Virus record (IMG/VR): IMGVR_UViG_3300025326_000019
Length of the DNA stretch: 64,000 nucleotides
Strand: one strand, 5' to 3'
Source: an uncultured virus (IMG/VR IMGVR_UViG_3300025326_000019)
Taxonomy: Duplodnaviria; Heunggongvirae; Uroviricota; Caudoviricetes
The translations under genes and the position numbers were made by a program. The notes below the pieces were generated by a model. That model saw only the letters and a list, made by a program, of their open reading frames with translations, had not been told where the DNA came from and did not search any database. Positions 22,793 to 53,000 of the stretch are shown one piece after another; within the stretch, counting starts at the first letter, position 1; the number at the start of each line of letters is the position of its first letter.

Positions 22793-23467
22793 ATGCGCTT
22801 AGGCTCGCATCATACCGAAGATTCTAAGGCTAAAATTGTAGCCGCTAATATTGGACGAGTTCCCAGTGCAGAAACACGCATGAAGATGTCGGCTGCTCAC
22901 GCTGGGCAATGTCAGTTTAAGACTATTACTACTTGTGATCTTGAATGGACTGCTGGGTTTTTAGAGGGAGAAGGCACATTCGATTTTTCTAACGGTAGCC
23001 AAAATGTAGGAAAACTGGCTATAGCATGCGAGTAGGTGCGGTACAGGTACAGGCATGGCCCTTGTACAAACTAAAAGATATGTTTGGAGGCAGTATATCT
23101 TTTTATCCCTCTAAAACCGACGGCGGCAGGTTTATCTATGACGCTTTATTCACTTTTATCTCCTCAGCGCCGGGATCAGGTTTTGAAGAAGTTGACTCTC
23201 TGGAAATTGCGGCCTATGTCACATAAATTCCAAACGCATTGTTTCAATGGGCATTTATTATCTGGTGAAAATGTATCTGTGTATACGGGTATCAAGGGCA
23301 AGAGACGGACTTGCTTAACGTGTCAGAGAAAGTACCGCAAGGATAGGCAGTCAGATATGAATCGCCCAATTTGTAAAATGTCAGAATGCGGAATTCCGGT
23401 GTTCGTTAAAGATGTGTGTAAAAAACATTATCAGCGCTATAGGCGTTCGTTGGGAAAAAGGGCCTAG
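22793..23467 (+). pseudogene. degenerate NUMOD3-LAGLIDADG homing endonuclease split over three reading segments
   Basis: WTAGFLEGEG in 22793..23035; VGAVQ..PLYKLKDMFGG in a second frame; MTLYSLLSPQRRDQ and THCFNGH after a further shift. Confidence 0.75.
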
Positions 23468-23471
23468 AAGA

Positions 23472-26885: not shown

Positions 26886-27406
26886 ACGCGAGAACACGCC
26901 GACCTATAATTATAAAAGACGGTATAGCGTATATAGATCTTGCCGGTAGAGACTGGGCACTTATTAACGAGGAAGATTTACCCTTAGTTAGTAATTGGCC
27001 GTGGCATAGGATTAGAGGAAAGTATACTTGGTACGCCGCAACAAATATTAGAGTGCCAAGTCGTCAACAAGAATACATGCACAGAATGATTCTTGGTACA
27101 TCTGGGAACAAATATACCGACCATATAAATGGTAATGGGCTTGATAACAGACTGATCAATTTAAGGGAATGTACTAATGGTCAGAATATGCGCAACGCTG
27201 AAAAGAGAAAACGTGGCAAAGTTTTATCTAGTAAATATAAAGGAGTATGTTGGTCTAAGAAATCTTCTTTATGGAGAGCAACGATTAAGGAGATGGGCAT
27301 TCAAAGACATATTGGACTTTTTAAGTCCGAGGTGGAAGCCGCTAGGGCTTATGATTCAGCAGCAATAAAAGCATTTGGCGAATTCGCAAGGCCAAACTTC
27401 GCATGA
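26882..27406 (+). CDS. HNH-AP2 homing endonuclease
   Basis: MHRMIL, DHINGNGLDNR..NLR, SKYKGV, HIGLF.SEVEAARAYD.AA...FGEFA; markedly AT-rich. Confidence 0.92.
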   Translation: MNARTRRPIIIKDGIAYIDLAGRDWALINEEDLPLVSNWPWHRIRGKYTWYAATNIRVPSRQQEYMHRMILGTSGNKYTDHINGNGLDNRLINLRECTNGQNMRNAEKRKRGKVLSSKYKGVCWSKKSSLWRATIKEMGIQRHIGLFKSEVEAARAYDSAAIKAFGEFARPNFA

Positions 27407-29528: not shown

Positions 29529-29704
29529 TCGTAACCTGTTCTTCGTGCCAGCTAGAATACGACGATTTATATACGCTCACCTATTGCCCACATTTGCCAT
29601 TCCAAATGCATACGAAGGTCACCGTTAACGGCATCCAGCGCTGCTGTCATAGCATCGAAGAACTGCGCGAAGCGATGCTGGACAAGACGCAGAGTGAACG
29701 ATGA
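29525..29704 (+). CDS. 59-aa Cys/His-rich hypothetical protein (not in the ORF track)
   Basis: GGAGG RBS; GTGA overlap; CSSC..YDD.....CPH. Confidence 0.5.
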   Translation: MIVTCSSCQLEYDDLYTLTYCPHLPFQMHTKVTVNGIQRCCHSIEELREAMLDKTQSER

Positions 29705-30336
29705 CGTTGGGTGCTGAGAAAAGAGCCACCAGGATTTGGGAAAAAACATGCCCAGCGTGTGGAGAATCTTTTGCTGTTGGCGGTGCATGTGGACCAATGA
29801 GAAAGAAAAAGTATTGTTCTGTGAGATGCGCGGGATTTTCCCCGTCCTTTTCTTCACCACGTGGGGCAATGCCGTTAGAGATGAAAAAGGAAGACGCTGC
29901 TTGGTTAGCAGGCCTGTTCGATGGCGAAGGTTGCGTGATCATCTACAAAAGCTCAAGTAAGTATTCAGTCCGATATGCTATGAAGATAACATTGTCCAAT
30001 ACGAACTCAGAAGCACTTGTAAGATGTAGGGATATTTCCGGGGTTGGCAATGTTGTTCTTGGCAGGGCAGGAACATATAAAAGTAAGCCGAGTTATTACT
30101 GGGTCGCCGGCAGTGAGACCGCTGCTGCTATTCTTCGTCAGATACTACAGTATTCTTTTATAAAGAAACCGCAGGTAGAACTTGCCCTGAAGTTTCAAGA
30201 AAAAATGCTGACTGCGTCTTTGAGGGCTCAGCTTGGATGGCAATTAGAGATGAAAAATGAGCTGCATTTGTTGAATTATCGTGGACCTCGTATTATAACG
30301 CAGCGTCTTGGTCGCCCGAAGACAGAGGCTGTGTAA
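29701..30336 (+). CDS. free-standing LAGLIDADG homing endonuclease
   Basis: AWLAGLFDGEG, LSNTN, ILRQILQYSFIKKPQ; N-terminal Zn finger. Confidence 0.9.
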   Translation: MTLGAEKRATRIWEKTCPACGESFAVGGACGPMRKKKYCSVRCAGFSPSFSSPRGAMPLEMKKEDAAWLAGLFDGEGCVIIYKSSSKYSVRYAMKITLSNTNSEALVRCRDISGVGNVVLGRAGTYKSKPSYYWVAGSETAAAILRQILQYSFIKKPQVELALKFQEKMLTASLRAQLGWQLEMKNELHLLNYRGPRIITQRLGRPKTEAV

Positions 30337-31013
30337 TGCTACCCATCGTTATGCCGTGTGTGAATTGCGTTTCTTATAGTAAGCAAGCGGTCGCGTCCGC
30401 GCATCCTCGCAGCGATCTCTACTTCATCGACAACGCCTCGACAGACGGCACGCGCGAGTGGGCGCAGGCAGAGGCCAACGCTGGCAGACTTCGATATCTG
30501 CCCCAGAGGTATAATCTTGGCGTGGCGGCATCCTGGAACCTCGGGATCCGAAAAGCCTTTGCTGACGGCCATGACAGCGTACTAGTGAGCAATAACGATG
30601 TTGTGTACGACGTGGATACGATCCCGAACCTCGAGCGCTGGCACGAGGAGACAGGGGGCTTTATCACCGTCCACTCGGTCGCGTACCTTGAAACGCTGCT
30701 GAAGCAAGCGCGGCGGCATGTGCTGGAGCAGCCACCGGATTTCGCGGGCTTTGTTATCTCACGGAAAATATTTGAGATGATTGGTCCGTTCGATGAAGGA
30801 TTCCGTCAAGCGTATTTCGAAGATCTGGATTATGTCATCCGCATGAAAGACGCTGATATAGTTTACGGCCGTGCTATGAACTCCTTAGTGCTTCATTACC
30901 ACTCGAGAACTGTACACGAGGGGGGAGTGAAGGCTTTCCCTCAGCAAGAGTTAAATCGTCGTCGCTTCATTGCCAAGTGGGGGCAACAGCGGCTACAGGA
31001 AGTCGGGCAATAG
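30336..31013 (+). CDS. glycosyltransferase family 2
   Basis: IDNASTDGT, NLGVAASWNLG, SNNDV, IGPFDEGF..AYFEDLD. Confidence 0.9.
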   Translation: MLPIVMPCVNCVSYSKQAVASAHPRSDLYFIDNASTDGTREWAQAEANAGRLRYLPQRYNLGVAASWNLGIRKAFADGHDSVLVSNNDVVYDVDTIPNLERWHEETGGFITVHSVAYLETLLKQARRHVLEQPPDFAGFVISRKIFEMIGPFDEGFRQAYFEDLDYVIRMKDADIVYGRAMNSLVLHYHSRTVHEGGVKAFPQQELNRRRFIAKWGQQRLQEVGQ

Positions 31014-31418: not shown

Positions 31419-31729
31419 ACACTATATCAAACTATCGCTTCGACGGTGTCAAGACTGAGCCAGTGTATTTCTGCCGTTGTGGTGTTGAGCACACAGGAGA
31501 TTACGCAATCTACGATTTCGGACATCATATGTGCTTTCACGATGGACCACTGTGGGATATCGGCTTAGGTCAATTTGTCTGCTCGGAGTGTGGGAAAGAT
31601 TTCAGAGTTGAGGAGATGCGCTCAGAATATGATATTCGTCAAGGTGTACGAAGGAAGTATACTACCCGTTATCAGAAGCTCTCGTGGTGGCAGGAAATAG
31701 TCTTGTATCTGCAGGCGCTCTACCGATGA
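31415..31729 (+). CDS. hypothetical Zn-binding protein
   Basis: AAGGAG RBS; CRCG..H, H.CFH, CSECG. Confidence 0.55.
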   Translation: MNTISNYRFDGVKTEPVYFCRCGVEHTGDYAIYDFGHHMCFHDGPLWDIGLGQFVCSECGKDFRVEEMRSEYDIRQGVRRKYTTRYQKLSWWQEIVLYLQALYR

Positions 31730-32838
31730 TCCGCGTGGGGTATTCGTCGTTTCTAGCTGACAGTTCGGGCATGGGGGAAGCGGCTCGTCGAGTACTGACT
31801 GCGTTGTCACTTCTTGACGACGTCGAAGTCGGTCCAGCGATCCTCAAGGGCGGGAAGCGAATCATCAGTGACGGGGGCTGGCAAGTGCCGATCACGCCAG
31901 CGCTCAAAGCATTCATCGACTACGATCTCTCTGGCCCAGCCGACGTTCATATGATCCACTGCGCTGCGATGGATTTCGATAAGTTTCGGCCACCGTTCAT
32001 GACAGCGAAGCGGATCGGCATGACTTGTGTAGAGGTCGATCGCCTACACCGTATCCAGATCGAAGGCTGTAAGTTCGTCGATCAGGTACTCGTACCATCC
32101 AAACACAACCAGGAGGTCTTCGAACGAGCTGGCATAGCGACGACCGTGGTCCCGTATCCGCTGGTCATGCCACCGTATACAGATGAACGGAACATCCCGA
32201 ACCGGCAGGCAATCGTCGGGGTCTTCGATAGCTCGTACGTATTTTATTGTGTAACCACCCTCCAAGAGCGCAAGAATATCATGGGTCTCGTGACCGCGTT
32301 CCTCCATGCCTTTACGTGGCAGGATGACGTCGCGCTCCTGATCAAGGTTGCTGGTGTGGATCCTCAGCAGGCTGTCAAGGACGCCGCTCTTTTCGTCGGA
32401 GCTTTGTGCACGGACATGCAGATCCAGGATCCGCCAAAGATCCGTCTGCTCGGCGGGGAATGGACGGATCCCATGCTCTGGGGCCTCCATGCTCGAGGGG
32501 ACTGCTACGTGTCCTTATCCCGTGGGGAGGCCTTCGGAATTCCTTTGTTGGATGCCGCCGCCATGGGGAACCAGGTCATCGCGGTGCCGTACGGTGGCCA
32601 CGTGGACTTCTTGCCGGCTGAAAACACGCATTGGGTGAAATATAGGATGACGCCAGTTGTCCAGAGATACCCACATTTCAATGGCCAGCAACTCTGGGCC
32701 GACGCCGACATCCTTCAGGCCGCCAACCTCATGAAGGAGATCGCCAAGAAAGGACGAGGGCCGAAAGCTCTACCGAACCTCACAGCATTTTCTACTATAA
32801 AAATCGCGGAGTTACTGCACAAGGTGCTTACTGAATGA
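31726..32838 (+). CDS. glycosyltransferase family 4 (GT-B)
   Basis: SGMGEAAR, VPSKHN, ERKNI, SRGEAFGIPLLDA. Confidence 0.9.
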   Translation: MIRVGYSSFLADSSGMGEAARRVLTALSLLDDVEVGPAILKGGKRIISDGGWQVPITPALKAFIDYDLSGPADVHMIHCAAMDFDKFRPPFMTAKRIGMTCVEVDRLHRIQIEGCKFVDQVLVPSKHNQEVFERAGIATTVVPYPLVMPPYTDERNIPNRQAIVGVFDSSYVFYCVTTLQERKNIMGLVTAFLHAFTWQDDVALLIKVAGVDPQQAVKDAALFVGALCTDMQIQDPPKIRLLGGEWTDPMLWGLHARGDCYVSLSRGEAFGIPLLDAAAMGNQVIAVPYGGHVDFLPAENTHWVKYRMTPVVQRYPHFNGQQLWADADILQAANLMKEIAKKGRGPKALPNLTAFSTIKIAELLHKVLTE

Positions 32839-36169: not shown

Positions 36170-37189
36170 ATGCCAAAAGGATATGTCACATCTGACATGA
36201 TCGACCTCAATGAGCTGTGGTATGCAGGCGGTGGTATCGCCGCTGCCGTCGATCAGTATCAAGCGGTCGAGATGCCGCTACTAAACGCACTCGCATTGCC
36301 GTGGCCGGAAAACATCATGAAGTACGGCATCAGCGAACGGAACGGATTCCAGGTCCTCGGGCCTGGGGAACGGCCAGACCGCAAGTACGTCGTAGAAGCG
36401 ACGATGTACCCCGTCGTGACGAAGTATGGCTACGGCGTGGGGACGGATCTCGATACCCTGCAACGCTCCAGCGCGCGGCAGATCATGCTCGCCATGAACC
36501 GGCCGATGCTGGAGGATCCTGAGCACATCCTGACGCGCATTCTCAAACTTCTAATGACGAACCCAGGTACCAGTAATGCTGGGTACGGATTCTGGAACGG
36601 GCAGTACGCGGCAGAGGAAATTATCACGCATCCGCCGGCCTATCAACAGCAGACGTTTGCGGCTGGCCACAACCACTTCTTGGTGTCGCTCACGGCCAGC
36701 ACACTCGTGCTCAAAGACATCACCGCGATGAAGCAGACAATCCGGCATCACGGGGCCAAGGGCACACTGCTTGGTTTCATCAATTCCGATACCGCGATGG
36801 CGATCGAGAACCTTGCGCTCTTTACCGTCGGCAGCACGGCGCTGGTGCGTTCGCCTGTATCGGATACCGTTGCGGTCGACGGCTTCGGGGAAAGCTTCAG
36901 GCTGCTCGGTGTCGACTGGTACGTCACGGAACTCGTGCCGGCCAACTACGTCCTCATGGTCGAAGGCAATTCTGCCGAGACTGAGCGGCCGTTGATCATG
37001 TACGAGCCCGCCGCGATGCGGGGGCTCAGGCTGCATCCAGGGCCGATGAACGACTATCCGCTCATCGAGTCCTTCTGGGATCGGTGGTTTGGATTCAAGG
37101 TCGCCAGGCGCGGTTCCGGTGCTGCGCTCTGGTTTGGTGCGCACGTCGGGACGTATACGTCGCCGACATTCTCGTTCACGGCGTCGTAA
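36170..37189 (+). CDS. major capsid protein
   Basis: 339 aa; position after scaffold and decoration genes; strong RBS; downstream hairpin. Confidence 0.8.
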   Translation: MPKGYVTSDMIDLNELWYAGGGIAAAVDQYQAVEMPLLNALALPWPENIMKYGISERNGFQVLGPGERPDRKYVVEATMYPVVTKYGYGVGTDLDTLQRSSARQIMLAMNRPMLEDPEHILTRILKLLMTNPGTSNAGYGFWNGQYAAEEIITHPPAYQQQTFAAGHNHFLVSLTASTLVLKDITAMKQTIRHHGAKGTLLGFINSDTAMAIENLALFTVGSTALVRSPVSDTVAVDGFGESFRLLGVDWYVTELVPANYVLMVEGNSAETERPLIMYEPAAMRGLRLHPGPMNDYPLIESFWDRWFGFKVARRGSGAALWFGAHVGTYTSPTFSFTAS

Positions 37190-37265: not shown

Positions 37266-37616
37266 ATGAGAACACATCAGAGGGAGAGGGTGAAGGAGCA
37301 TCTGATCGATCCGCGTCAATGGCGTGTCATCGGTCAATTGCGGCACCATGACGTGACGTACGGCACGGCAGAACCGCTGCCGGATATCACGGTGACTGAA
37401 GCGGCGCTGTACGAAAAGCAAGGCACATTGATGCGGGTGAGCGATACGGCACTCGCAGAATCATATCTTGAAGGGCCTGATGTGGCGGTGCTGCAGACTG
37501 TGCTCGACAAGAAACCGGATGAACGAGTGCTGAATCAGATGCTTACACTGGCGCAAAGGAATTCGCGATCCAAGGTGCTTGAATTGGCGCTGACCATTGC
37601 CAGGGGGAGTGCATAG
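37266..37616 (+). CDS. hypothetical protein
   Basis: GAGGAG RBS. Confidence 0.6.
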   Translation: MRTHQRERVKEHLIDPRQWRVIGQLRHHDVTYGTAEPLPDITVTEAALYEKQGTLMRVSDTALAESYLEGPDVAVLQTVLDKKPDERVLNQMLTLAQRNSRSKVLELALTIARGSA

Positions 37617-39928
37617 TGCCACGTGTGCTGATCGTCAGCGATAGCCCGGCGGTGAGTTCTGGCATGGGCCGCGTGGTGCGTGAACTCGCGCCGCGATTCA
37701 CGGCCGACGGATTTTCGGTCGGGGTCGCTGGGTGGTTTGACCTTGACGCTCCTGCCATGGACTTCGATTATCCAGTTTTCCCAATTCAGAAGCACGAACC
37801 GGCGAGCCTGCAACCGTATCTCGAGCACTTTGCGCCGGATCTCGTGGTGGCGATCGGGGATCCGTGGGACTGGGCGTGGCTTGTCAATCATCGGTTGCAG
37901 ACCGGCGGATACAAGCTCGTCGGCTACCTAAATGTCGAAAGTGCTCCATTGCCCATGCTGTGTGAACGTATTCTCGACGGTTTCGATGCCGTGTGTACCT
38001 CTAGCCAGTACGGTGCCCGTGCGATCGGCCGGCCTGGCGTGACTGCGATTCATTACGGCGTCGATACGGAGACGTTCTTTCCCATGCCGCCACCGTCCAA
38101 GGTGTTGTTTGGGAAGCCATTGGATCAGACATTCACGGTGCTGATCAACGGGCAAAATACATTTCGAAAGAACTTGGGCGCATCCATGGCGGGATTCCTG
38201 CAGTTCGCTCGCGGGAAGCCGGATGTCCTGGCGTACTTCAATACCGTCGCTAGGCCAGGTCCGAACGATGCACCCGGGACGGACCTCGTGGATCTGTCTA
38301 TTCAGCTCGAGGCTGAGAAACTCGTTTGGTTCAATCCAGACAACCATGGACCGATCAAGACCATTGACGATACGGCCTTGAACGGACTCTATGGGATTGC
38401 CTCCGTTCTGCTCTCAACTTCTGTCGGCGAAGGATTCGGGCTTCCGGTCCTCGAGGCGATGGCCTGTGGCGTTGTTCCGGTAGTTCCGCAAGATTTCAGT
38501 ATGCCGGAAATCATCGGAACGGAACCGGGTCAGTACATCCAACACGCCCGCGGTATTGGGATCCCGGTGCATGCGTACATTCCGACGCTCCAGGGTCAGC
38601 GGGTGCCGGTGGTCGCTGACGCGGACATTGCGGATGCGCTCCAAGCTGCCTACGACGCATGGCGTCATATGCGCGCAATGTCCAATCTCGATGGGGATAC
38701 GACCAGCTTCGGCGTGATGCGCACAAACGGTCTTGAATTCGCGCGGAGCAAGACCTGGGATCGGACGTATACGCAATTCGTTACTGTGTGCCTAGACTCC
38801 TTGCGGACGCCGCGGTCGCGGATGGCGGTGGGCCGACCCATCGAGCCAGCTATCCGACTCTTTGGACGCCGGACAGCCAAACGGCATCCGGAGGCTTTTG
38901 GCGTGCTCAAGATGGGCGGGTTGGGTGACATGCTGCAGGCCACGGCCGTTATCCGGGCTGCGGCGCTCAAGTCAGGACGCAAGGCCGTAGTTTTCTGCAA
39001 CGCCCATGCGGACGTGTTTCTGGCCATGCCAGAGGTGGTTGAAACTGTGCAACTCGCTCCCATGCCCCAGCAAATGGCAGCAGACAGCCTAGCAGACGAG
39101 TTTCCGCTCTTCCTGGACGTCCGGTACGTCTCGAGGGCCTACGGCCTCTGGAAGCCCACGGCGTTCTTTGAGAAGCATCAGTGGTTTTATGACCACTGGA
39201 CGCCGTCCTCAAATCGCCTGGCGACCCTTGGGATGCACAGTACGCAAATCATGCTGGATAGTTTGGGGCTCGAGGGGCCGATTTGGCCGGTCTATGAACC
39301 TCGGGCTGAGCCGTCGCTGGATCGCGCTGCGTGGCCAGTCGAGCCCTACGTGGTCTTGGCGACCGGTGTCGGTGCTATGGGAGGGCTCAAGCGCTGGCCG
39401 GCGGAGCGCTGGACCGCGCTCGCCAGTGCTCTTCACCTGGACGGACTTCACCTTGTGCATGTCGGCGGCACTGGGGATGACGCGGTGGATGGCATTGACT
39501 TTGATTACCGTGGTGCAAGCCTACCTGAGACCGCGTGGATCCTTGAGCATGCGCAAGCGCTAATTGCCGTGGAAGGTGGGATTGCACACTTGGCCGCTGC
39601 GGTCATGCGGCCTTTTTGGGGACCGGATGGGCAGAAGGTGCCCAACGGACAATTCATTGGAGTGATCTTCGGGCCAACGCCCACTAGGCCTTTTCTCTAT
39701 CCAGGCCACACCGCTCTCGTACTCCCAGAATTCTGTACCCCATGCTGGCAGGTCGAACCGAATTGGAAGCACGCCAAATGCTCAATCGGAGCACCGAGTT
39801 GTGTGAACTTCCCGTCGGTGGCGGATGTCCTCTCTACGGTAACGCTGTATCTGCCGCGTGTGACCCGAACATCCTTTTCTTCTCCCAGTACGGCGCATGC
39901 CCTGCATATGGAAATGATACCGAAATGA
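37616..39928 (+). CDS. GT4 + GT9 (heptosyltransferase-like) fusion glycosyltransferase
   Basis: N half: SGMGRV, RKNL, GEGFGLPVLEAMACG; C half: GGLGDML, KRWPAERW, SLPETAWIL, VEGGIAHLAAA, IFGPT, CTPCW. Confidence 0.9.
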   Translation: MPRVLIVSDSPAVSSGMGRVVRELAPRFTADGFSVGVAGWFDLDAPAMDFDYPVFPIQKHEPASLQPYLEHFAPDLVVAIGDPWDWAWLVNHRLQTGGYKLVGYLNVESAPLPMLCERILDGFDAVCTSSQYGARAIGRPGVTAIHYGVDTETFFPMPPPSKVLFGKPLDQTFTVLINGQNTFRKNLGASMAGFLQFARGKPDVLAYFNTVARPGPNDAPGTDLVDLSIQLEAEKLVWFNPDNHGPIKTIDDTALNGLYGIASVLLSTSVGEGFGLPVLEAMACGVVPVVPQDFSMPEIIGTEPGQYIQHARGIGIPVHAYIPTLQGQRVPVVADADIADALQAAYDAWRHMRAMSNLDGDTTSFGVMRTNGLEFARSKTWDRTYTQFVTVCLDSLRTPRSRMAVGRPIEPAIRLFGRRTAKRHPEAFGVLKMGGLGDMLQATAVIRAAALKSGRKAVVFCNAHADVFLAMPEVVETVQLAPMPQQMAADSLADEFPLFLDVRYVSRAYGLWKPTAFFEKHQWFYDHWTPSSNRLATLGMHSTQIMLDSLGLEGPIWPVYEPRAEPSLDRAAWPVEPYVVLATGVGAMGGLKRWPAERWTALASALHLDGLHLVHVGGTGDDAVDGIDFDYRGASLPETAWILEHAQALIAVEGGIAHLAAAVMRPFWGPDGQKVPNGQFIGVIFGPTPTRPFLYPGHTALVLPEFCTPCWQVEPNWKHAKCSIGAPSCVNFPSVADVLSTVTLYLPRVTRTSFSSPSTAHALHMEMIPK

Positions 39929-40672: not shown

Positions 40673-41771
40673 ATGGCAACTGCACGCATGAAGAAGGGTA
40701 GGCGCCCGCGGGGAGGAGTCACGCACTCCTCGATTCATGTCCGCGGGTTCGCTCGGATTCAGATGGGGGAGAGGGTCGACGGTCACCTGAAGATTGTCGG
40801 TGATTCCGGGTGGCTGAAGAACACGATTACCAACGAGGGGCGCAATCTGTACATCGCGGCGCAGGTCGGCTCTGTCACCGGTTCCAAGCAGGTGAACGCG
40901 CTCCAGCTTGCGACGCAGCAAACCGCTGTCGATGCCGCGTCCACGGCTCTTGTGGGTGAGACGCGCGTGCGGAAGACACTGCTGGCGTCCACCCTCGCAA
41001 CGGGTACGTTGCGGATGACCGCGTCCTGGTCGTCTACGGACAATGCGGCGGCGATCACCATCGGGTCGATCGCTGTGTACAACACCACTACCGCTGGGGC
41101 GGGTACCATGGGATCGGGCCAAAGTTTCACAACTTTGACTGTAAAATCAACTACTTACAGAGCGCCTGCTCTTTATCTAGTTGGTTGCGGAGCCTTGGCT
41201 GCGTGAGCTACCAAGGGATGGCCGCTAATTCGGCGAACGCTGTGATGCCAACGCCGAGCGAAATGCCTGAGGCGATGAGGACGCGCTCGCAACACGTCTC
41301 AGGTATCTGTGTAGAGATCATATACGGCCCTCTTCGGCGCGTGCAGACCGGAGATGAAGACATGATCCATGCCCTGGCGAATGATAAGTCAGGGAACCAG
41401 CCCGATAGCCCAGTAAATTTGACGCACTGCGCAATGGGCGTCAAATCAAGATTTGTCGGCTACGTTACTCCTGCTGCAAAATCAACTAGTTATATCTCAG
41501 AATATGAGAGATCGGTTGATAGCAGCGTAAAGGGGTCGGCGCGTCATATTGGTGACGATATGACGGATGGTGGCGAACTCGGTGGACGCTGTGATGCCAA
41601 TACCGAGCCAAGCGTTGGGTCAGGGGAGATCGCACTCGTTTGTACTGACTCAATGGCGTGTGTAGAGACTAGGTGCCACCCTCTCCCGTGCGGTAGTTTG
41701 GGAGATGAAGGTATAGTCCACTCCCCGGCGAACGATAAGTCGGGAGCCACGAGGACGAGTGGCGTTTCTAA
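40673..41771 (+). CDS. spliced structural protein, 171 aa: join(40673..41135,41430..41465,41755..41771)
   Basis: Removing both introns gives ...GSGQSFTT-SQWASNQDLSAT-YEWRF*; each 5' exon ends in U and each intron ends in G. Confidence 0.85.
41136..41429 (+). mobile_element. group I intron 1 (294 nt, no ORF)
   Basis: P AATTCGGCGAA, Q AACGCCGAGC, R GTAGAGATCA, S GAAGACATGATCC; P3 GGCCG/CGGCC; P7 GATCA/TGATC; IGS TTGCGGAG (41185-41192) pairs with CTT|CGCAA with U.G at the splice site. Confidence 0.9.
41466..41754 (+). mobile_element. group I intron 2 (289 nt, no ORF)
   Basis: P AACTCGGTGGA, Q AATACCGAGCCAAG, R GTAGAGACTA, S GAAGGTATAGTCC; P3 GGTGGC/GCCACC; P2 CGTCATAT/ATATGACG. Confidence 0.9.
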
Positions 41772-41807
41772 CGCATCGCGTTACAGTAGTTTGAGAGAGA
41801 ATCAAGT

Positions 41808-42926
41808 GTGATTTGGACGAAGGAGATGGATGCACTACTGCTCGAGAAGTATCCGAGCGAAGGTGCCCGTCCGTGCTCGGTACTATTCGGCGTATCAATC
41901 GACGCCGTATGGCACCGAGCACGGAAACTAGGCTGTCATGCGAGCAAGGAAGTGCAGAAGTCTGCCATCCGTAGATGGAAAGACGAGTACGACGACATTC
42001 TTCGGAAACGGTATGCAGTCGACGGTCCACAAAGAATAGCAGCAGAACTCAAATTATCTAGGCAAACCGTAGAGAATCGGGCAGCGGCTCTTGGTCTTAC
42101 AAAGGGACACTGGAGTCAGGAATCGGATGCAGTAATTAAATCCGGTTATGCCGCAGATGGTGCTGCAGCCGTTGCTAAGGTTCTAGGGGTACCAATTTCT
42201 GCTGTGTACCACCGTGCCCGACGACTTGGAATTAAATATGACTGGAAGACTCGTCGTGGACAGTCGCAGTGGCTTTCAGAAACAGTACGTGTAACCGCAG
42301 CTATCCGTGATGATTTAAAGTGTGGAATTTACGCTATTCGACATGGTGACAGTGGTCGGATGTATGTTGGTAGTGCTCTTGATATCTTTTCAAGATGGAA
42401 GGTACATCTAAGGGGTTTGCGTCAAGGTAAGCATCATTCTAGGGCATTACAAGCAATCTTCGATAAATATGGACCATCAGCATTCGTTTTTGAAGTTTTG
42501 GAAGAATGTGCTTCTGAACAGCTTTACGAGCGCGAACAGCAGTTCATGAATATTCATAAACCTGACTTAAATTCGGCTCCAAACGCGGGGAGTCCACGTG
42601 GCATTAAACGCACTGCTGAGCAACGTGTTGCCCATACAAAGAGAATAAGAGCTATTTACGCTGATCCAATTAAGCGCAAACGCATTAGGGCAGCAAAGTC
42701 AGCGGCTATGCGTGAAAAGTGGAAGAACTCAGAATTTCGAGGCAGAATGTCGACGGCTTGGCGTACGCGTCCGTGGGATGGCGAGGAGGATAATTACCTT
42801 TTCAATCTCTCTGGGCATCTTCCTCTTAAAGAATTAGCCGTAGTTTTTGGCCGAACACCGTCGGCCGTCCAAAATCGTGTCCATTTCCTCGGTCTCAGTC
42901 TCCGCGCCAAAGGAGCGAGGGTGTGA
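41808..42926 (+). CDS. free-standing GIY-YIG endonuclease with repeated HTH-like modules
   Basis: CGIYAI...MYVGSA...RW..H...L, EREQQF; three N-terminal and one C-terminal W...D..L HTH-like repeats. Confidence 0.9.
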   Translation: MIWTKEMDALLLEKYPSEGARPCSVLFGVSIDAVWHRARKLGCHASKEVQKSAIRRWKDEYDDILRKRYAVDGPQRIAAELKLSRQTVENRAAALGLTKGHWSQESDAVIKSGYAADGAAAVAKVLGVPISAVYHRARRLGIKYDWKTRRGQSQWLSETVRVTAAIRDDLKCGIYAIRHGDSGRMYVGSALDIFSRWKVHLRGLRQGKHHSRALQAIFDKYGPSAFVFEVLEECASEQLYEREQQFMNIHKPDLNSAPNAGSPRGIKRTAEQRVAHTKRIRAIYADPIKRKRIRAAKSAAMREKWKNSEFRGRMSTAWRTRPWDGEEDNYLFNLSGHLPLKELAVVFGRTPSAVQNRVHFLGLSLRAKGARV

Positions 42927-46063: not shown

Positions 46064-46605
46064 TGCCGCCTATTGCCCCGACACCATTGATGCGGTCACT
46101 GCCGAACATTATCGCGTCGATGTTCAGGTATTTATCCGATCTGCAGTATACGGTCGGTACCCGCACCGATACGCTCAAAGGATTCTTTCCGGGGCTCATT
46201 ATCTTTCCAGCGTTCCCGGATGACTTGACCGTACTGAAATCTCCCGTGCTCGCGCTGGGCAGTACGGAATATACGTCCCCTGGATTCGATCGATTCGGGT
46301 CCGTGGGATTCGACGCCGTGTATCGGTTGCCGCTGTGGGGATTTGTGTGTGGGCAGGGCGGCGATCAGAAGAACAAGGCCTATCGGGATCGGCTCATGAG
46401 CGATCTGATCGAGATCTTTTCTGGTACGGCGGCCAATGAGGGCATCGATCTTTATGATTCGGAAACGCGGCAAGTTATTTCCACCGTGGAAGTGGTCGGG
46501 TGCATGGCGCGAGAAGTGCCGACGAATGCGCCGACGATCGATGCAGATCGCTTTAGATTTCTTTGTGAGGTGGATGTTTCTATAGACGCTGGGTGGACAT
46601 CATGA
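46063..46605 (+). CDS. tail terminator protein (putative)
   Basis: Position before the tail tube; FP.....PVLAL, RDRL...L pattern. Confidence 0.55.
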   Translation: MPPIAPTPLMRSLPNIIASMFRYLSDLQYTVGTRTDTLKGFFPGLIIFPAFPDDLTVLKSPVLALGSTEYTSPGFDRFGSVGFDAVYRLPLWGFVCGQGGDQKNKAYRDRLMSDLIEIFSGTAANEGIDLYDSETRQVISTVEVVGCMAREVPTNAPTIDADRFRFLCEVDVSIDAGWTS

Positions 46606-47672
46606 CTATGGTCGATATTATCTGGCTCGCAGGTATTATTGAAGGCGAGGGATGTTTTAGTGATGTTTATCCAATTATTCAATTACAGATGACTGATAAA
46701 GATGTTGTCGAACGCGTAGCCAGTTTATTTGATAGACCACTAAGAGCATGGCAATCTAAAACTACAGGTCTTAAGCGTGTATACATTTGTAACGTGTCTG
46801 GGACTGACGCTATTTCTTGGATGATGACGTTGTACTCTGAAATGGGCACGCGTAGAAGGGGACAGATTAAGGAAGCTATAAACAAATGGAAAGCGTCCTC
46901 TCGAATTCCTCGAGGAGCAAATGGACGCAGGCTACCGGCTATCTGTCATCCTGATAGGTTACGTAAGGCTCACGGATTGTGTCCATCTTGTAGTGTAAAG
47001 AACTATAGATCGCGTGGTAACACTATGTCTGGAGATAGAATAAAACCAAGTGACTTACATCTACGCGTGAACGCGAAAATCCAAAATACGCATTCCATTG
47101 ATATCGCGAGAACGCGACCTGACTTAGGGGATATTACACCCATAGCTAAGGATATTTCTTGGCTTGCTGGCGTTCTTGAAGGCGAAGGATCATTCCTTAA
47201 AGCGAACAGGCAGCCTGTAATTTCGTTAGCAATGGCAGACCGTGATGTTATAGAACATGCTGCGCGTTTGTGGAATAGAGCTGCTAATACATGGCACCGC
47301 AAGGGTTCAACCTGTAAAGGTTCAAATTACAAACCCATACATTTCTGTCGTGTTACCGGCGTTGCTGCCATTTCTTGGATGATGACCTTGTATTCTAGTA
47401 TGGGTATTCGTAGGAAACAACGAATCAAAAGTCTTATAGAGGAATGGCGAGCTTCTTCAAATATGCCCAAGAGCTCAAGGGGTTATCGTTTCCCTGCTAT
47501 CTGTCACTCGGATAGAGTACGTCATGGACGTGGTCTTTGTCGTGCGTGTTATTGGAAAATTCACGGCAGTCCCAAAAGAAATACGAGCAAGCGATGCATG
47601 AACGATTCAACGTACAGCAATCTAACAAACACGAACGATGTACGACAAAACGAAGTTGAAGTAACGTCTTAA
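46602..47672 (+). CDS. free-standing tandem LAGLIDADG endonuclease (duplicated LAGLIDADG+Zn unit)
   Basis: WLAGIIEGEG and WLAGVLEGEG, each followed by AISWMMTLYS.MG.RR and PAICH.DR....GLC..C; AT-rich. Confidence 0.9.
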   Translation: MTMVDIIWLAGIIEGEGCFSDVYPIIQLQMTDKDVVERVASLFDRPLRAWQSKTTGLKRVYICNVSGTDAISWMMTLYSEMGTRRRGQIKEAINKWKASSRIPRGANGRRLPAICHPDRLRKAHGLCPSCSVKNYRSRGNTMSGDRIKPSDLHLRVNAKIQNTHSIDIARTRPDLGDITPIAKDISWLAGVLEGEGSFLKANRQPVISLAMADRDVIEHAARLWNRAANTWHRKGSTCKGSNYKPIHFCRVTGVAAISWMMTLYSSMGIRRKQRIKSLIEEWRASSNMPKSSRGYRFPAICHSDRVRHGRGLCRACYWKIHGSPKRNTSKRCMNDSTYSNLTNTNDVRQNEVEVTS

Positions 47673-47707: not shown

Positions 47708-48741
47708 ATGGCTCAGGAGGCAAAGCGTTACAGGCGCCGCAAGAAGGAAGACGTCAGCCCACGGGCTCAGGCGCACTAAGCGAGTGATCGCTTACGTGAA
47801 TCACGGCGAAGTCGGGGAACGCCCAGCCGGTCACCCGCCGGCGGCCAATCCCGAGCCAAGCGTTGCGAAGAGGGAGAACGCACTCCGCGGTACTCTCGCA
47901 ATGGCGTGTGTAGAGACTGGGTGCCGTGCGCTCCGGTGCGTTATCGGAGATGAAGGGACAGTCCGCGCCTCTGCGGAAGCAGAGGATTACGCGCTTCATC
48001 GATGGGTACTTTGTAGACAATGCCAACGTTGCAACGCCAGATGTGAACAAGACAGACGAAACCTTCCACGTATTCGGCAAGGATTCGCCCGAGTCCGATG
48101 TGCTGAACAACTACGGCACACTGACCCTGGGCCTGCTCGACAAGTACACGTCCAACGCCATCCTCGATCTGATCACGGGTCAGGATCCTGGAGACACGGC
48201 ACCGCATCGCTATCAGGCCGACGACCTTGGCACGGTGCACGTGTGGGCGAATATCAAGGATGCCAAGAATACGCAGTACCTCAAGTCGTGGTTCCTTGGC
48301 GGGTGGGCACCTGGTCTGCCAATGCCGTCAGGCAATCCGGAAGCCAAGGCTGCGGTGTCGATTGTCGGCAACGGACATTTGCCAGAACAGTATCAGGGCT
48401 GCTTCGTCATGATGAAGAAGGTGTCTTCAGGCGCAGCGGTATCCATGGGCGTCACGCCGATCCCGGTGCCCACAGGATCGCTGTCCGGCAATCCGCCGGA
48501 GAAGTACGCGATTTCCGTCAAGGCGATCAACGATACGACTGCATCGCCGGGCGGCAAGTTCGATCAGGAAGAGGTTACAGTGACGGCGGCGATGGTCACC
48601 TCGGCAGGGACCGTGGTATTTTCCGAGATCATGTCGCAAACGACACTGCCGGCCGTGACGCATGCGGCGGTGTACTACCTGTCGAGCGGGACCGGTGTGT
48701 ACCCGACGGCGAGTGCTAAGCCGGATAAGCTGCGGACGTAA
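47708..48741 (+). CDS. major tail tube protein (putative), spliced, 264 aa: join(47708..47754,47994..48741)
   Basis: Spliced product MAQEAKRYRRRKKEDV-FIDGYFVDN...; lies between the terminator and chaperone genes; followed by a hairpin. Confidence 0.8.
47755..47993 (+). mobile_element. group I intron 3 (239 nt, no ORF)
   Basis: P1 CGU|C with GGCG; P2 with GUGA tetraloop; P3 CACGGC/GCCGTG; R GTAGAGACTG, S GAAGGGACAGTCC; P9 CCTCTGC-GGAA-GCAGAGG; P9.0 then terminal G. Confidence 0.92.
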
Positions 48742-50053: not shown

Positions 50054-53000
50054 ATGGCTGATCAAGCGACAGATCTCCTCTTAACTATTGGTGCTGATAC
50101 TACAGCGCTGAGACAGCAGATCGCGCTGCTCAGTCAAGAGCTTGGTGTTGCTATTCAGCCGATCAAGCTGAGGGTTGAAGCAACTGGGGTTAAGGAAGTT
50201 GAGCAAGGCCTGACAGGTGCGCAGGTAGCCGCTAGTAAAGTTACTGCTGAACTCAATGATGTTCAAAAGGCCCTTGATCGTAATGCAGCGGCTACTGTAC
50301 GGTGGCAAGCAGAATTTGCCGCCGGAACGCAGAGAGCTGGTCGAATACAATCTGCTGCCATTGCTGAAAATGAAACGTTAACCAGAAAGCTCGGAGTTAC
50401 ACAGATTCAAAGTGGGCTGGAATATGAAGCTCTACTCCGAAAACTTGGCGTTACGCAGATTCGAGCGGCGACAGAATACGAAGCTGCGGTACGGAAATTA
50501 GGCGTTGCACAAGTTCAAGGATATGCAGAGAATGCCCGCCTTGAACAGCAACAACAATTGCAGCGTATTCGTAATATCGAAGCACTTAAAGTACAACTTG
50601 CCCAGCTTCAGAAACTGCAAGCAAGTATTAATCTCCCCGCTGGATTTACTTCGCAGATTACGACATTGCAGGGCGCTCAAGCAACGCTACAAGCAGGCGG
50701 TATTATTGATCCCGTTGTACTCGCTCGACTCAAGACCCAAACGAGCGAATTTCGCCGCGAGATTGAAACACTGAATCCAAAGATTGCGCAAGCCGACTCC
50801 TTCCTCAGTACATTTTTCGGTCGCTTCGGTCGCTATATTCAGATCGCCGGGCAGTTGACTCTTGTCTACGGCGCCTTCCGGGCCGTCACGTCAGAGATTA
50901 CCGAATTCATCGCAGTTGACAAGATCCTGCACCAGATTGCTGCAACGATGGATCAGAGTGCGAATCGCGCTGAAGTATTGCGTCAGTCGTGGGCGCTCAT
51001 GGTGCAGGCAAATCAGGCCTTTGGTACGAGTTTTTCAGAAGCTGGCAAAGTGGTGTTTGAACTGCAGAAAGCGCTCAATAACAGCGCTGAACAGATTCAA
51101 GGTGCGTTTATTCCTGCTCTGGCATTAGCTTCACTCGGGGAAGGCAATCAGACAGAGATTATCCGGGCACTCATTGGACTCTATAAGATCTTTGGCGACA
51201 CATTAGGTAATACGACACCGCAGGAAAAGTATCTCGCCATTTCTGATAAATTGATCGCCGCAGCGGCGTCGTCTATCCAAGACATTGACGGATTCAGAAC
51301 TGCACTCCAAAACGTCGCACCAGTTGCAGCGGTAGCGAATATCAGCCTCAACGAAACTCTTGCCGGCTTAATTCTTTTGACGAACGGACTGCAATCAGCC
51401 AGCCGTGCTGGTACTGGTTTCCGGGCACTGATTGTCGATCTTCAGACACGCGGGCCGCAAATCGCCCAAGCACTAAAGATTCCATTTGATATTGATGCGC
51501 CATTAGATGCCATGAAATTGTTGGACCGGGTTATTGCGAAACTGAAAGAAACGGGTGCGACATCACTTCAGACACAACTCGCTATCAACGCAGCATTCCC
51601 GGATAAGCGTGCTGCCCTTGCATTGGAAGCGTTTGTTAAGACATGGGGAGACTACGGCAATGCTCTCAACGACGTCACAAATTCTGCTGGTAAAACTGGC
51701 GTTGTAGTCAAGGAATTATCTGAAACTGTCAGTGCGGCATTTGGACGCTTATCGGGAGCGTTATTCAAGGGATTTGCTGACAGTCTCGACGTATTGTTCA
51801 ACGTTAAACCAGGCGATACTGCTGGGCTTGTTCAGGCTATTGATGCTGTCACGGGTGCTATTAAGTTGCTTTCCGGTGATGCTGTAACAGCCATCACAAT
51901 CCTGAAACAGTTGTTGGAACTTGTTCCACGCATACCGAAATTACCGGGAGAAGGGCCTGGACGAACTGGCGCTGAAACAATACGACGCTTTGTCGGACAG
52001 GTTATCCCAGGGTTAGGTCTTGCGCAAGGATTAGCAGACATTAAGGCAGCGAATGACGCCCAGGTTATTGCAAATCAACTTGCAAGCGAGCAGCAATATC
52101 TGTTAGCTGCAGGAGTTGGGGATTCCCTTAAGAGCAATGCAATCCTTGCACAACGCACTGAGCTCACAGCAGAACTGAACAAACGCCTCGCGGAACTCCA
52201 TAGTATCGCCCAGGCGAATCTCGCAGTCAGCGATCAGACATTGTCGTTCGACGCGCGGCTGGCTGCGGCCGAATTTCTTATTACGAAACGTCGGCAGGAA
52301 CGGATCCAAGCTGAAAACGATTTTCGGCAATTAGATTTGCCCAAGGCTGAACAAGGCTCGATCGACACCGCTGGTGCAAAAGTTATTGCAACGCTCGAGG
52401 CGGAAAATCGAGCGATCAAGCAACGGTTGGAACTCAAGAAACAGGTCAATGATGCAGATATTGCTTTCTCTCAGCAACAGGCAAAGTCGGCAGAGGATGC
52501 CAGAAAAGCGCTTGAGGCCTTCGATAATCTGCTTGCATCACAGCAAGGCAAGCTCAAGGATCTGACGGCCAGCGAAAAGTTTGCGGCTGACGATATGGCG
52601 AAGTTGTTGAGCACGTTAAATGATTTGCAGTTCAAGGCCATCTCACCGGAGGAATTCGCAGCCCGTAATGCTGCCGTGACAGCATTTGGAATTGCCTTGC
52701 AAAGAAATCTCATTGAACCGCTCCTGCAAATTACGCGCTCTGATCAGGAAAATGCGCTTGAGAATTTGTTCGCCGCTATGCTAAAAGCTGGCCGAGAAGC
52801 CGATAATCTCCGGTCAAAACTCGGCCCAGGCGCGACCAGCGGTATCACTGGAGGTGTGCTACCAACAGGTATTGCCGTCCAGACACGATTGACTGAGCGT
52901 GATCTTGGTCTGGATAAGATGCGCGATGCCCTCAATCAACTCGGCGCGCAATCGTCAAACATTTTCGAGCAGATGATCCTTGATACAGCAGCCGCTGGAA

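What the first reader, a model, noticed from the sequence alone, without database searches (positions are those of the whole stretch)
40673..41771. One small structural gene split by two tandem ORF-less group I introns around a 36-nt micro-exon
Seen: two complete group I cores (P/Q/R/S, P3, P7) at 41136-41429 and 41466-41754. Removing both at U|...G| junctions restores a clean C-terminus (FTT-SQWASNQDLSAT-YEWRF*), and the intron 1 guide sequence pairs 8 nt across its junction. Known: multi-intron phage genes exist (for example Staphylococcus phage Twort orf142) but are uncommon, and most phage introns sit in nucleotide/DNA metabolism genes. Inference: two self-splicing events are needed to make the last 17 residues of a virion protein. 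The track ORFs 40673..41206 and 41185..41811 are artefacts of the unspliced sequence.
Basis: partly seen in the sequence, partly recalled or inferred. Interest (0 to 1): 0.85.

Follow-up and report, generated by a model that had tools for sequence, protein, structure and literature searches.

The report
Two self-splicing introns, one phage gene
The last 17 codons of a small, widely conserved phage virion gene are split by two related self-splicing (group I) introns separated by a 36-base exon, with a homing-nuclease gene next door; it is real, but it closely matches a case already described in Staphylococcus phage Twort.

Summary
41136-41429 and 41466-41754 are paralogous ORF-less group I introns. 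Removing them at U|...G| gives a 171-codon gene. Its tail (…FTT|SQWASNQDLSAT|YEWRF*) matches the conserved C-terminus of intron-less homologues. With four homologous introns from other contigs, P2, P3, P4, P5, P7 (pseudoknot), P8 and P9 covary: 94% of cells pair against 33-42% when partners are slid, and 24 of 39 pairs change on both sides. A covariance model built only from foreign introns hits the window three times: both introns and a third copy at 47755-47993. Rfam RF00028 is sub-threshold here (intron 2: 23 bits; intron 1: no hit) but passes on homologues (70.3 and 52.6 bits). The host protein folds (pLDDT 92) like tail-fibre anchoring domains. Across the family, related introns occupy five sites within 37 nt. 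Two other contigs also carry intron pairs, around 30-nt and 13-nt exons. A free-standing nuclease gene is the next ORF downstream in 6 of 7 intron-bearing loci against 13 of 83 intron-less ones, which fits trans ("collaborative") homing. No RNA data exist, so splicing is inferred. Closest precedent: Twort orf142 introns 2 and 3. Verdict: new member of a known kind, moderate interest.

The parts
40673..41135 (+). Exon 1 of the host gene (154 codons + 1 nt), a small conserved virion protein with a tail-fibre-anchor-like fold
   Evidence: 58 homologues at E<=1e-3; 151 and 410 relatives in viral and metagenome contigs. An AF2 model of intron-less homologue P0005 reaches pLDDT 92.3. Best PDB match is a Haloferax tailed virus 1 tail chain, E 7.9e-7; BFVD matches include tail fibre and tail-collar fibre proteins.
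41136..41429 (+). Group I intron 1 (294 nt, ORF-less, phase 1, inside the Ser codon U|CG)
   Evidence: Helices: P2 41194-41200/41209-41215, P3 41220-41225/41324-41329, P4 41229-41234/41253-41258, P5 41239-40/41247-48, P7 41316-41321/41362-41367, P8 41331-41337/41348-41354, P9 41372-41376/41390-41394. Covariation. Foreign-built model R1 scores 140.4 bits. U at -1 and G at the 3' end.
41184..41192 (+). Internal guide sequence of intron 1 (P1 + P10)
   Evidence: 9 contiguous pairs with the ligated junction CUU|CGCAAU, including U41135.G; 38 of 2000 shuffles do as well. It lies immediately 5' of P2.
41146..41184 (+). Hairpin in the P1 loop of intron 1; a homologous one lies in intron 2 at about 41481-41520
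   Evidence: Present in the MFE folds of both introns. Its first 15 nt are identical to the sequence between the stop codon and the GIY-YIG ORF of L082, and 13 nt match L089.
41430..41465 (+). Exon 2, a 36-nt micro-exon (codes SQWASNQDLSAT together with the flanking split codons)
   Evidence: Identical to the corresponding residues of intron-less P0005; tblastn picks it up as a separate segment.
41466..41754 (+). Group I intron 2 (289 nt, ORF-less, phase 1, inside the Tyr codon U|AC)
   Evidence: Helices: P2 41543-41549/41558-41564, P3 41569-41574/41675-41680, P4 41578-41583/41602-41607, P5 41588-89/41596-97, P7 41667-41672/41713-41718, P8 41682-41688/41699-41705, P9 41723-41727/41741-41745. 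RF00028 23.1 bits; R1 149.6 bits. The same insertion site is used in L086 and L017.
41524..41529 (+). Best candidate guide sequence of intron 2 (P1 only)
   Evidence: AGCGUA pairs with UACGU|U, 6 bp including the U.G wobble. This is no better than shuffles (1121 of 2000 for the 5-bp exon part) and no P10 was found, so it is weak.
41755..41771 (+). Exon 3 (completes Tyr, then EWRF and the stop at 41769-41771)
   Evidence: Matches the family's C-terminus YEWRF.
41808..42926 (+). Free-standing GIY-YIG homing-endonuclease gene (372 aa, HTH repeats then the GIY-YIG domain at residues 171-252)
   Evidence: Pfam PF01541 36.9 bits (cut-off 22.6); PHROG homing-endonuclease families. Homologous GIY-YIG ORFs lie directly downstream of the same host gene in L005, L082, L088, L089 and L097.
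47755..47993 (+). Third intron of the same family, in the 5' end of another late gene (exon 1 47708-47754, exon 2 47994-48741)
   Evidence: R1 145.3 bits; RF00028 22.8 bits. Removal gives MAQEAKRYRRRKKEDV|FIDGYF..., while intron-less homologues start MALEGRRFRRRKKEDVFVEGYF.... A LAGLIDADG_3 ORF at 46593-47672 lies just upstream.

Best explanation
Two paralogous ORF-less group I introns interrupt the 3' end of a conserved gene of about 171 codons for a small virion protein. In the late transcript each intron should fold into its own ribozyme (P1-P9 with the P3/P7 pseudoknot) and excise itself by the standard two-step, guanosine-initiated transesterification. Both splicing events are then needed to join exon 1, the 36-nt exon 2 and the 17-nt exon 3. 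Those last two exons encode the final beta-hairpin of the protein. The existence, boundaries, homology and RNA-level conservation of the introns are shown here, as is the restoration of the conserved protein. Catalysis in vivo, its efficiency and the order of the two events are inferred. At the DNA level the introns most likely spread and persist with help from the free-standing GIY-YIG nuclease encoded 37 nt downstream (trans or 'collaborative' homing). In that model an intron in the target both rides the repair event and protects its own genome from cleavage. This mobility part is inferred from gene order and its statistics only.
For: (1) Joining at U|...G| gives the tail ...FTT|SQWASNQDLSAT|YEWRF*, identical to intron-less P0005 and matching the family consensus. 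(2) By tblastn, 144 of 160 fetched loci run uninterrupted through this region, so the insertions are derived. (3) Six homologous introns were aligned (window x2, L082, L086 x2, L005). Of 39 pairs in P2, P3, P4, P5, P7, P8 and P9, 94.4% of cells pair against 33-42% for slid partners. 24 pairs change on both sides, and 0 of 500 shuffles reach the observed covariation. (4) Model R1, built from four introns of other contigs only, finds both elements at 149.6 and 140.4 bits, plus one further copy, and nothing else in 64 kb. (5) Rfam RF00028 passes its curated cut-off of 50 bits on homologous introns: L137 70.3 bits and L086 intron 2 52.6 bits (same insertion site as window intron 2); L082 scores 47. 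Window intron 1 matches L086 intron 2 by blastn at E 8e-12. (6) All 13 introns defined in this family have U before the 5' splice site and G as the last intron base, and their removal restores the conserved C-terminus. (7) The intron 1 guide pairs 9 nt across the ligated junction. (8) The AF2 model (pLDDT 92.3) places the residues of exons 2 and 3 in the last two strands, E144-155 and E159-168. (9) The downstream exons are intact, and the locus is 100% identical in three other contigs, L001, L002 and L081. (10) For mobility: a nuclease gene is the next ORF downstream in 6 of 7 intron-bearing loci against 13 of 83 intron-less loci, Fisher p 2.6e-4. GC3 falls from 0.77 (codons 1-145) to 0.54 (codons 146-171), p 0.028, as a co-conversion tract would give.
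Against: No RNA evidence was obtainable, because no RNA run was listed. Rfam finds nothing at gathering level in the window and nothing at E<=1 in a whole-window permissive scan. Intron 1 alone gets no RF00028 hit at E<=10, and intron 2 and the third intron score only 23.1 and 22.8 bits. The P1 of intron 2 is 5-6 bp, no better than shuffles (1121 of 2000), and no P10 was found. The covariation set has only six sequences, and I derived the structure from those same sequences; P6 could not be put in register and was left out. The exon 1 reading frame stays open for 23 codons into intron 1 (stop at 41204-41206), past the guide sequence, so translation could interfere with folding. The nuclease association is not corrected for relatedness, the nuclease's target is unknown, and nuclease genes also follow intron-less alleles (L088, L089, L097). 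In L086 my junctions for intron 1 give two extra residues (SQWAFITNQD), so at least one boundary in the family is uncertain.
Confidence: 0.9

Rival explanations
1. The two elements are decayed intron relics that no longer splice. The phage would then make the 177-aa read-through protein of ORF 40673-41206, which lacks the conserved C-terminus, as gene callers annotate it.
For: The database holds exactly this 177-aa product (P0001). Rfam scores are below threshold in the window. The P1 of intron 2 is weak. No RNA data exist.
Against: Exons 2 and 3 are intact, in frame and identical in protein sequence to intron-less homologues, which is unexpected for unused DNA. Every core helix is kept by compensatory changes between the two paralogues and their relatives. 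The missing residues form the last two strands of a confidently predicted fold. Other family members with aberrant tails (P0003, P0011, P0019, P0034, P0036, P0038, P0049) look like the same read-through into introns. For P0019 this is shown: its tail is the read-through of L086 exon 1 into intron 1.
Confidence: 0.05
2. The pair often acts as one unit and skips the micro-exon, as in Twort orf142. Both introns are in phase 1, so joining exon 1 to exon 3 stays in frame (...FTT|YEWRF*) and would give a second isoform 12 residues shorter.
For: Both introns are phase 1. They are paralogues with 74% mean column identity. Exon skipping is documented for two similar tandem group I introns around a 23-nt exon in Twort orf142 and around a 34-nt exon in Coxiella 23S rRNA (PMC10136302, passages read), and for a Bastillevirinae polymerase gene (PMC11878797, passages read).
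Against: The intron 1 guide pairs with the start of exon 2 (6 bp of P10), and by my own reading of the sequences, not a tool result, it does not pair with the start of exon 3. The micro-exon residues are among the most conserved of the family (S153, Q154, W155, S157, N158, Q159, D160) and sit inside the predicted sheet. There is no RNA evidence either way.
Confidence: 0.1
3. The introns are immobile passengers and the neighbouring GIY-YIG gene is an unrelated selfish insertion in a convenient intergenic spot, so there is no functional link between nuclease and introns.
For: Nuclease genes of several types (HNH_3, NUMOD3/DUF559, GIY-YIG) follow 13 of 83 intron-less alleles as well. This phage carries many other free-standing nuclease ORFs.
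Against: The enrichment is 6 of 7 against 13 of 83. L025, which has two introns, has two HNH_3 ORFs downstream. The third intron of the window, near the 5' end of its gene, has a LAGLIDADG_3 ORF directly upstream. The introns' P1-loop hairpin is shared with the nuclease gene's leader in L082 and L089. GC3 drops around the insertion sites.
Confidence: 0.3

Closest known systems
Staphylococcus phage Twort orf142, introns 2 and 3 (Landthaler & Shub 1999; seen here only as cited in PMC10136302 and PMC11878797, passages read)
   Same: A phage structural gene (orf142 is called a tail tube gene in PMC11878797) carries several group I introns. Two of them are highly similar to each other and flank a very short exon (23 nt there, 36 nt here).
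   Different: The phage lineage is unrelated (an uncultivated phage, 55% GC window, about 129-kb contig). There are two introns rather than three. The Twort introns are subgroup IA2; here P3' is followed directly by P8 with no P7.1/P7.2, and the subgroup was not determined. Splicing and exon skipping are shown for Twort and only inferred here. Here a free-standing nuclease gene abuts the gene.
Collaborative (trans) homing: an ORF-less intron plus an adjacent free-standing endonuclease, as in cyanophage S-PM2 psbA with F-CphI (Zeng, Bonocora & Shub 2009) and a second phage system (review PMC3984707, passages read)
   Same: ORF-less group I intron(s) in a conserved phage gene, with a free-standing homing-endonuclease gene immediately beside that gene.
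   Different: The nuclease here is GIY-YIG (HNH_3 in distant relatives). There are two introns, and five alternative sites across the family. The defining feature, a nuclease target coinciding with the intron insertion site, is untested.
Group I introns in capsid and tail genes of Cluster J mycobacteriophages, and in the Tuc2009 capsid gene (PMC3706429, abstract and passages read)
   Same: Group I introns in virion structural genes of phages that also carry many free-standing HNH genes. The introns were recognised by comparison with intron-less homologues and by U...G boundaries.
   Different: Those are single introns per gene and were confirmed by RT-PCR and protein sequencing. Here a tandem pair surrounds a micro-exon, with no RNA data.
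Coxiella burnetii 23S rRNA gene with two group I introns around a 34-nt exon (as cited in PMC10136302)
   Same: Two group I introns separated by a micro-exon of similar size.
   Different: That is an rRNA gene of a bacterium with introns of different subgroups (IB2 and IA3). Here the two are paralogues inside a protein-coding phage gene.

Membership tests
Group I self-splicing intron | Conserved core of paired regions P3-P8 with the P3/P7 pseudoknot topology | tested here: met
   P2, P3, P4, P5, P7, P8 and P9 were located in both introns. 94.4% of cells pair, 24 of 39 pairs show compensatory change, and slid controls pair at 33-42%. P6 is present in each sequence but could not be aligned in register.
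Group I self-splicing intron | U as the last base of the 5' exon, paired with G in an internal guide sequence (P1) | tested here: met
   U41135 and U41465 are present. Intron 1 has a 9-bp P1+P10 guide at 41184-41192 (38 of 2000 shuffles). Intron 2 has a 5-6-bp P1 at 41524-41529 with the U.G wobble, but this is not better than chance.
Group I self-splicing intron | G as the last intron nucleotide (omega-G) | tested here: met
   G41429 and G41754. The same holds for all 13 introns defined in the family.
Group I self-splicing intron | Score at or above the Rfam RF00028 gathering cut-off (50 bits) | tested here: not met
   Window: no gathering hit; intron 2 23.1 bits; intron 1 no hit at E<=10; third intron 22.8 bits. 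The cut-off is met by homologues in other contigs: L137 70.3 bits and L086 intron 2 52.6 bits. Membership therefore rests on homology plus structure, not on the curated model.
Group I self-splicing intron | Guanosine-dependent self-splicing, or spliced RNA in vivo | not testable with these tools
   No RNA run was listed for this sequence.
GIY-YIG homing endonuclease (ORF 41808-42926) | GIY-YIG catalytic domain above the Pfam cut-off, joined to DNA-binding modules | tested here: met
   PF01541 36.9 bits against a cut-off of 22.6 at residues 171-252, with HTH hits on both sides. PHROG homing-endonuclease families down to E 7.5e-20.
Collaborative (trans) homing system | ORF-less intron with a free-standing endonuclease gene adjacent to the intron-bearing gene | tested here: met
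   The nuclease ORF starts 37 nt after the host stop codon. The same arrangement occurs in 6 of 7 intron-bearing loci.
Collaborative (trans) homing system | [quoted passage not shown] | not testable with these tools
   This needs a cleavage assay. Only indirect hints are available: the enrichment and the GC3 drop around the sites.

The most novel reading that the evidence does not exclude
The last 45 nt or so of this small virion gene may be a family-wide arena of nuclease-intron conflict. Whichever free-standing nuclease (GIY-YIG, HNH_3) lands just downstream would cut intron-less alleles inside codons 153-165. Related ORF-less introns have been fixed at five different positions there because each insertion destroys a target, and tandem pairs (micro-exons of 36, 30 and 13 nt) would arise when one insertion does not protect against a nuclease with a long or two-part target, or against a second nuclease. 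The hairpin shared by the introns' P1 loop and the nuclease gene's leader would be the recombination joint of an intermediate on the way to, or back from, a composite mobile intron.
Probability: 0.25. Interest if true: 0.7.

Novelty: new member of a known kind. Interest (0 to 1): 0.5.

Why it matters
For annotation: gene callers truncate this conserved virion gene, and a second late gene at 47708-48741, and they invent ORFs across the ribozymes. Rfam's group I model misses all three introns at its curated threshold, so this intron lineage is probably overlooked widely in uncultivated phages. For biology: the family offers natural replicates of tandem group I introns around very short exons (36, 30 and 13 nt), a layout for which only a few natural examples were named in the papers I read. 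It also pairs these with several kinds of neighbouring free-standing nuclease. That makes it a convenient system for testing how two adjacent ribozymes avoid or use exon skipping, and whether introns act as immunity against neighbouring homing nucleases.

Tried and rejected
- RNA evidence: no RNA holder was listed for 40900-41900.
- Whole genome: none is held for this window, so only the window and fetched loci were searched for further introns.
- Rfam: gathering scan of the window gave 0 hits, and the permissive whole-window scan gave 0 at E<=1.
- GenBank phages: tblastn of exon 1 found no match. blastn of the intron region found only a 34-nt match in Bacillus phage SP-15, between a RecA CDS and a hypothetical CDS. 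Rfam found no group I hit in that locus at E<=0.1, so it was dropped.
- Host protein: no family at E<=0.01 in Pfam or PHROGs for the window's own exon 1 and none in Pfam for P0005. P0005 has only a weak PHROG hit (phrog_5417, unknown function, E 0.0015). A profile search of PDB sequences gave only chance-level hits.
- First AF2 run, with 38 close homologues, was unusable (pLDDT 49.8). It was replaced by a 115-sequence alignment.
- P1 for intron 1: I first considered GGUUG/AGUUG (41179-41188) pairing with CAACU, but this leaves the splice-site U unpaired. TAGTTGG (41178-41184) gives only one exon base pair. Both were rejected in favour of 41184-41192.
- 3' end of intron 2: by similarity to intron 1, a 3' end near 41778 was considered. 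It gives ...SAT-SLQ*, which no homologue supports, so it was rejected.
- L051 ends early but has no intron hit and was left unexplained. L100 is cut by its contig end.
- P6 and part of P9 were left out of the covariation count and the model because the alignment was not in register.
- Subgroup (IA, IB, IC...) was not determined.
- Earlier scan notes gave nothing on this genome.
Full report
**What is there.** The window is part of a large tailed-phage genome; the same sequence lies on a 128,929-bp metagenome contig (L081) and in two IMG/VR contigs. The region of interest sits in the structural module. That module holds a terminase large subunit gene (15378-18134), a major head protein gene (36170-37189), several glycosyltransferase genes, many free-standing HNH ORFs and a tape-measure gene (50054-57961). 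ORF 40673-41206 (177 aa) and ORF 41185-41811 (208 aa) are what an ORF finder sees at the finding's coordinates. A 372-aa ORF follows at 41808-42926.

**Check of the observation.**
- The two elements, 41136-41429 and 41466-41754, align end to end at 74% mean column identity.
- Joining 40673-41135, 41430-41465 and 41755-41771 gives 516 nt (171 codons plus stop) ending ...GSGQSFTT|SQWASNQDLSAT|YEWRF*.
- A search with exon 1 alone returned 58 homologues, mostly 156-172 aa.
- The alignment consensus of 49 of these sequences ends ...GQTFTTSQWNSNQDLSATYEWRF. P0005 (79% identical in exon 1) has exactly the window's last 17 residues as one uninterrupted ORF.
- The family is large: 151 relatives in viral contigs and 410 in metagenome contigs.
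- Of the 160 loci kept, 144 run uninterrupted to the C-terminus by tblastn (that criterion missed L137).
- 114 distinct ORFs from these loci show the same C-terminal motif.

**Are they group I introns?** The curated evidence is weak.
- Rfam gives no gathering-level hit in the window and nothing at E<=1 in a permissive whole-window scan.
- In short-range scans RF00028 scores intron 2 at 23.1 bits and the third intron at 22.8 bits. It does not report intron 1 at all.

The comparative evidence is strong.
- Homologous introns interrupt the same gene in L082, L086 (two) and L005.
- On the six-sequence alignment A4 I placed P2, P3, P4, P5, P7 (crossing P3, the group I pseudoknot), P8 and P9.
- 94.4% of 233 cells form standard pairs, against 33-42% when the 3' partners are slid by 1-3 columns.
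- 24 of 39 pairs change on both sides, and 0 of 500 shuffles reach the observed covariation.
- Caveats: there are only six sequences, I derived the structure from them, and P6 was left out because it is not in register.

As a non-circular test I built a covariance model from the four foreign introns only.
- In the 64-kb window it finds exactly three hits at E<=1: 41542-41747 (149.6 bits), 47774-47987 (145.3 bits) and 41193-41396 (140.4 bits).
- RF00028 passes its own 50-bit cut-off on homologous introns elsewhere: L137 at 70.3 bits and L086 intron 2 at 52.6 bits, the latter at the same insertion site as window intron 2. L082 scores 47.
- The sequence motifs aligned to the Rfam consensus in intron 2 are the classical conserved P, Q, R and S stretches.
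- MFE folds reproduce the nested helices, with z -2.38 and -3.74.

**Splice sites.**
- Both introns follow a U and end in G. The same is true of all 13 introns I delimited in this family, and each removal restores the conserved C-terminus.
- Intron 1: GUUGCGGAG (41184-41192), immediately 5' of P2, pairs contiguously with CUU of exon 1 and CGCAAU of exon 2. This is a textbook P1/P10 guide with the U.G wobble at the splice site.
- Intron 2: the best P1 is AGCGUA (41524-41529) with UACGU|U. It is short, no better than chance, and no P10 was found. This is the weakest point of the anatomy.
- Both introns are in codon phase 1.

**The host protein.**
- The window's exon 1 has no Pfam or PHROG family.
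- More distant members hit phrog_5417 (unknown function), the N-terminal half of phrog_4176 ('tail fiber protein') and phrog_240 ('head protein').
- With a 115-sequence alignment AlphaFold gives a confident all-beta model of P0005 (pLDDT 92.3).
- Its best solved match is a 953-residue chain of the Haloferax tailed virus 1 tail (E 7.9e-7). The next is a chain of the 'fiber I and fiber-tail-adaptor' entry of phage GP4.
- Among predicted viral structures, 71 matches reach E<=1e-3. They include N-terminal parts of tail fibre and tail-collar fibre proteins.
- 'Small virion protein with a fibre-anchoring type fold' is as far as the evidence goes.
- Exons 2 and 3 encode residues that fall in the last two strands (E144-155, E159-168), so the unspliced product would lack part of the sheet.

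1. The ORF 37 nt downstream is a GIY-YIG homing endonuclease with HTH modules (PF01541, 36.9 bits).
2. The family's 3' end is an intron hotspot.
   - Related introns occupy five positions within 37 nt (P0005 numbering):
     - codon 153, phase 1: window intron 1
     - codon 157, phase 1: L086 intron 1 and L025 intron A
     - codon 161, phase 2: L082, L005, L137, L069 and L025 intron B
     - codon 163, phase 2: L115
     - codon 165, phase 1: window intron 2, L086 intron 2 and L017
.
   - Tandem pairs occur three times independently of site: window (36-nt exon), L086 (30 nt) and L025 (13 nt).
   - In 100 non-redundant loci (492 kb) the model hits nothing except these positions.
3. Nuclease genes are associated with the introns.
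   - A nuclease gene is the next ORF downstream in 6 of 7 intron-bearing loci with enough sequence. These are GIY-YIG in the window, L005 and L082, and HNH_3 in L017, L115 and twice in L025; none was detected in L069.
   - Among intron-less loci the figure is 13 of 83. Fisher p is 2.6e-4, not corrected for relatedness.
4. GC3 drops from 0.77 in codons 1-145 to 0.54 in codons 146-171 (p 0.028), as a co-conversion tract from a lower-GC donor would give.
5. A hairpin in the P1 loop of both window introns begins with a 15-mer identical to the sequence between the stop codon and the GIY-YIG ORF of L082, and 13 nt match L089.

Together these points fit the collaborative, or trans, homing scheme described for ORF-less phage introns with adjacent free-standing endonucleases (PMC3984707, passages read). 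The defining test, cleavage at the insertion site, was not possible.

**A third intron.** The same model finds a copy at 47755-47993. Its removal joins a 47-nt exon (47708-47754, MAQEAKRYRRRKKEDV) to 47994-48741 (FIDGYF...). 30 of 34 listed homologues begin with the contiguous ...RRRKKE... motif, for example MALEGRRFRRRKKEDVFVEGYF.... A LAGLIDADG_3 ORF (46593-47672) lies directly upstream. This is again a free-standing nuclease gene next to the intron-bearing end of a gene.

**Comparison with what is known.**
- Tandem, mutually similar group I introns around a very short exon in a phage structural gene are already described. Twort orf142 introns 2 and 3 flank a 23-nt exon that can be skipped or included (PMC10136302, passages), and orf142 is called a tail tube gene in PMC11878797 (passages).
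- Coxiella 23S rRNA has a 34-nt exon between two group I introns.
- Introns in capsid and tail genes are known from Cluster J mycobacteriophages and Tuc2009 (PMC3706429, abstract and passages).
- The statement that most phage introns sit in DNA and nucleotide metabolism genes agrees with PMC11878797.
- My four literature searches did not turn up this gene family or a multi-site hotspot of this kind. They were keyword searches of open-access text only, and I read no supplements.

**Verdict.** The element is a new member of a known kind: group I introns of phage late genes, probably mobilised in trans. Its added value lies in the family-wide hotspot, the repeated tandem pairs and the nuclease association. 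Splicing itself, exon skipping and nuclease targeting remain to be tested.

Noticed in passing
window 47708-48741 (intron 47755-47993); ORF 46593-47672: A third ORF-less intron of the same family splits the 5' end of another late gene after codon 15 plus 2 nt. Intron-less homologues confirm the join. A free-standing LAGLIDADG_3 nuclease ORF (labelled 'HNH' by PHROG) ends 36 nt before that gene's start codon. Gene callers start the gene inside the intron (P0059, 271 aa).
   Followed up: yes
window 41146-41184 and about 41481-41520; L082 1086-1130; L089 and L088 just after the host stop codon: A hairpin module starting ATCAACTACTTACA lies in the P1 loop of both window introns. In other contigs it lies between the host gene's stop codon and the GIY-YIG ORF. 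A diverged copy also sits in the L082 intron. This may be a footprint of exchange between intron and nuclease cassette, or a regulatory hairpin; it is unexplained.
   Followed up: partly
L025 3416-3658 and 3672-3917; L086 1131-1391 and 1422-1657: Two other phage contigs carry tandem intron pairs in the same gene, around micro-exons of only 13 nt (L025) and 30 nt (L086). L025 has two HNH_3 ORFs downstream.
   Followed up: partly
L086 1131-1391: With the only available omega-G, removal of L086 intron 1 gives SQWA-FIT-NQD, two residues longer than every other family member. Either the boundary is atypical or this copy is degenerate.
   Followed up: no
window 41120-41771 (exon parts): Third-position GC falls to 0.40 in codons 151-165, against 0.77 upstream. 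The exon sequence there resembles lower-GC relatives (L082, L089, L090), which suggests co-conversion during homing.
   Followed up: partly
window 41870-41925: A 56-nt near-perfect inverted repeat lies inside the N-terminal coding part of the GIY-YIG ORF. It drew chance-level miRNA-model hits on both strands.
   Followed up: no
window 1434-2168, 10007-10693, 26882-27406, 29701-30336 (HNH-type ORFs); 21713-22792, 23412-24611, 30336-31013, 31684-32838, 37616-39928 (glycosyltransferases): The structural module is unusually rich in free-standing HNH nuclease ORFs and glycosyltransferase genes. These include a 770-aa fusion of GT4-like and GT9 (heptosyltransferase-like) domains right after the head genes.
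   Followed up: no
intron-less relatives, first ORF downstream of the host gene (e.g. L007 3659-4213, L011 3578-4129): In many distant relatives the gene after this virion gene is a small Methyltransf_11-type methyltransferase (about 35 of 83 ORFs scanned).
   Followed up: no
L161 (Bacillus phage SP-15, KT624200.1 93091-93124): A 34-nt match to the P4-P5 region of intron 2 lies in the unannotated gap between a short RecA CDS and a hypothetical CDS. This may be an unannotated intron, but Rfam gave no hit at E<=0.1.
   Followed up: partly
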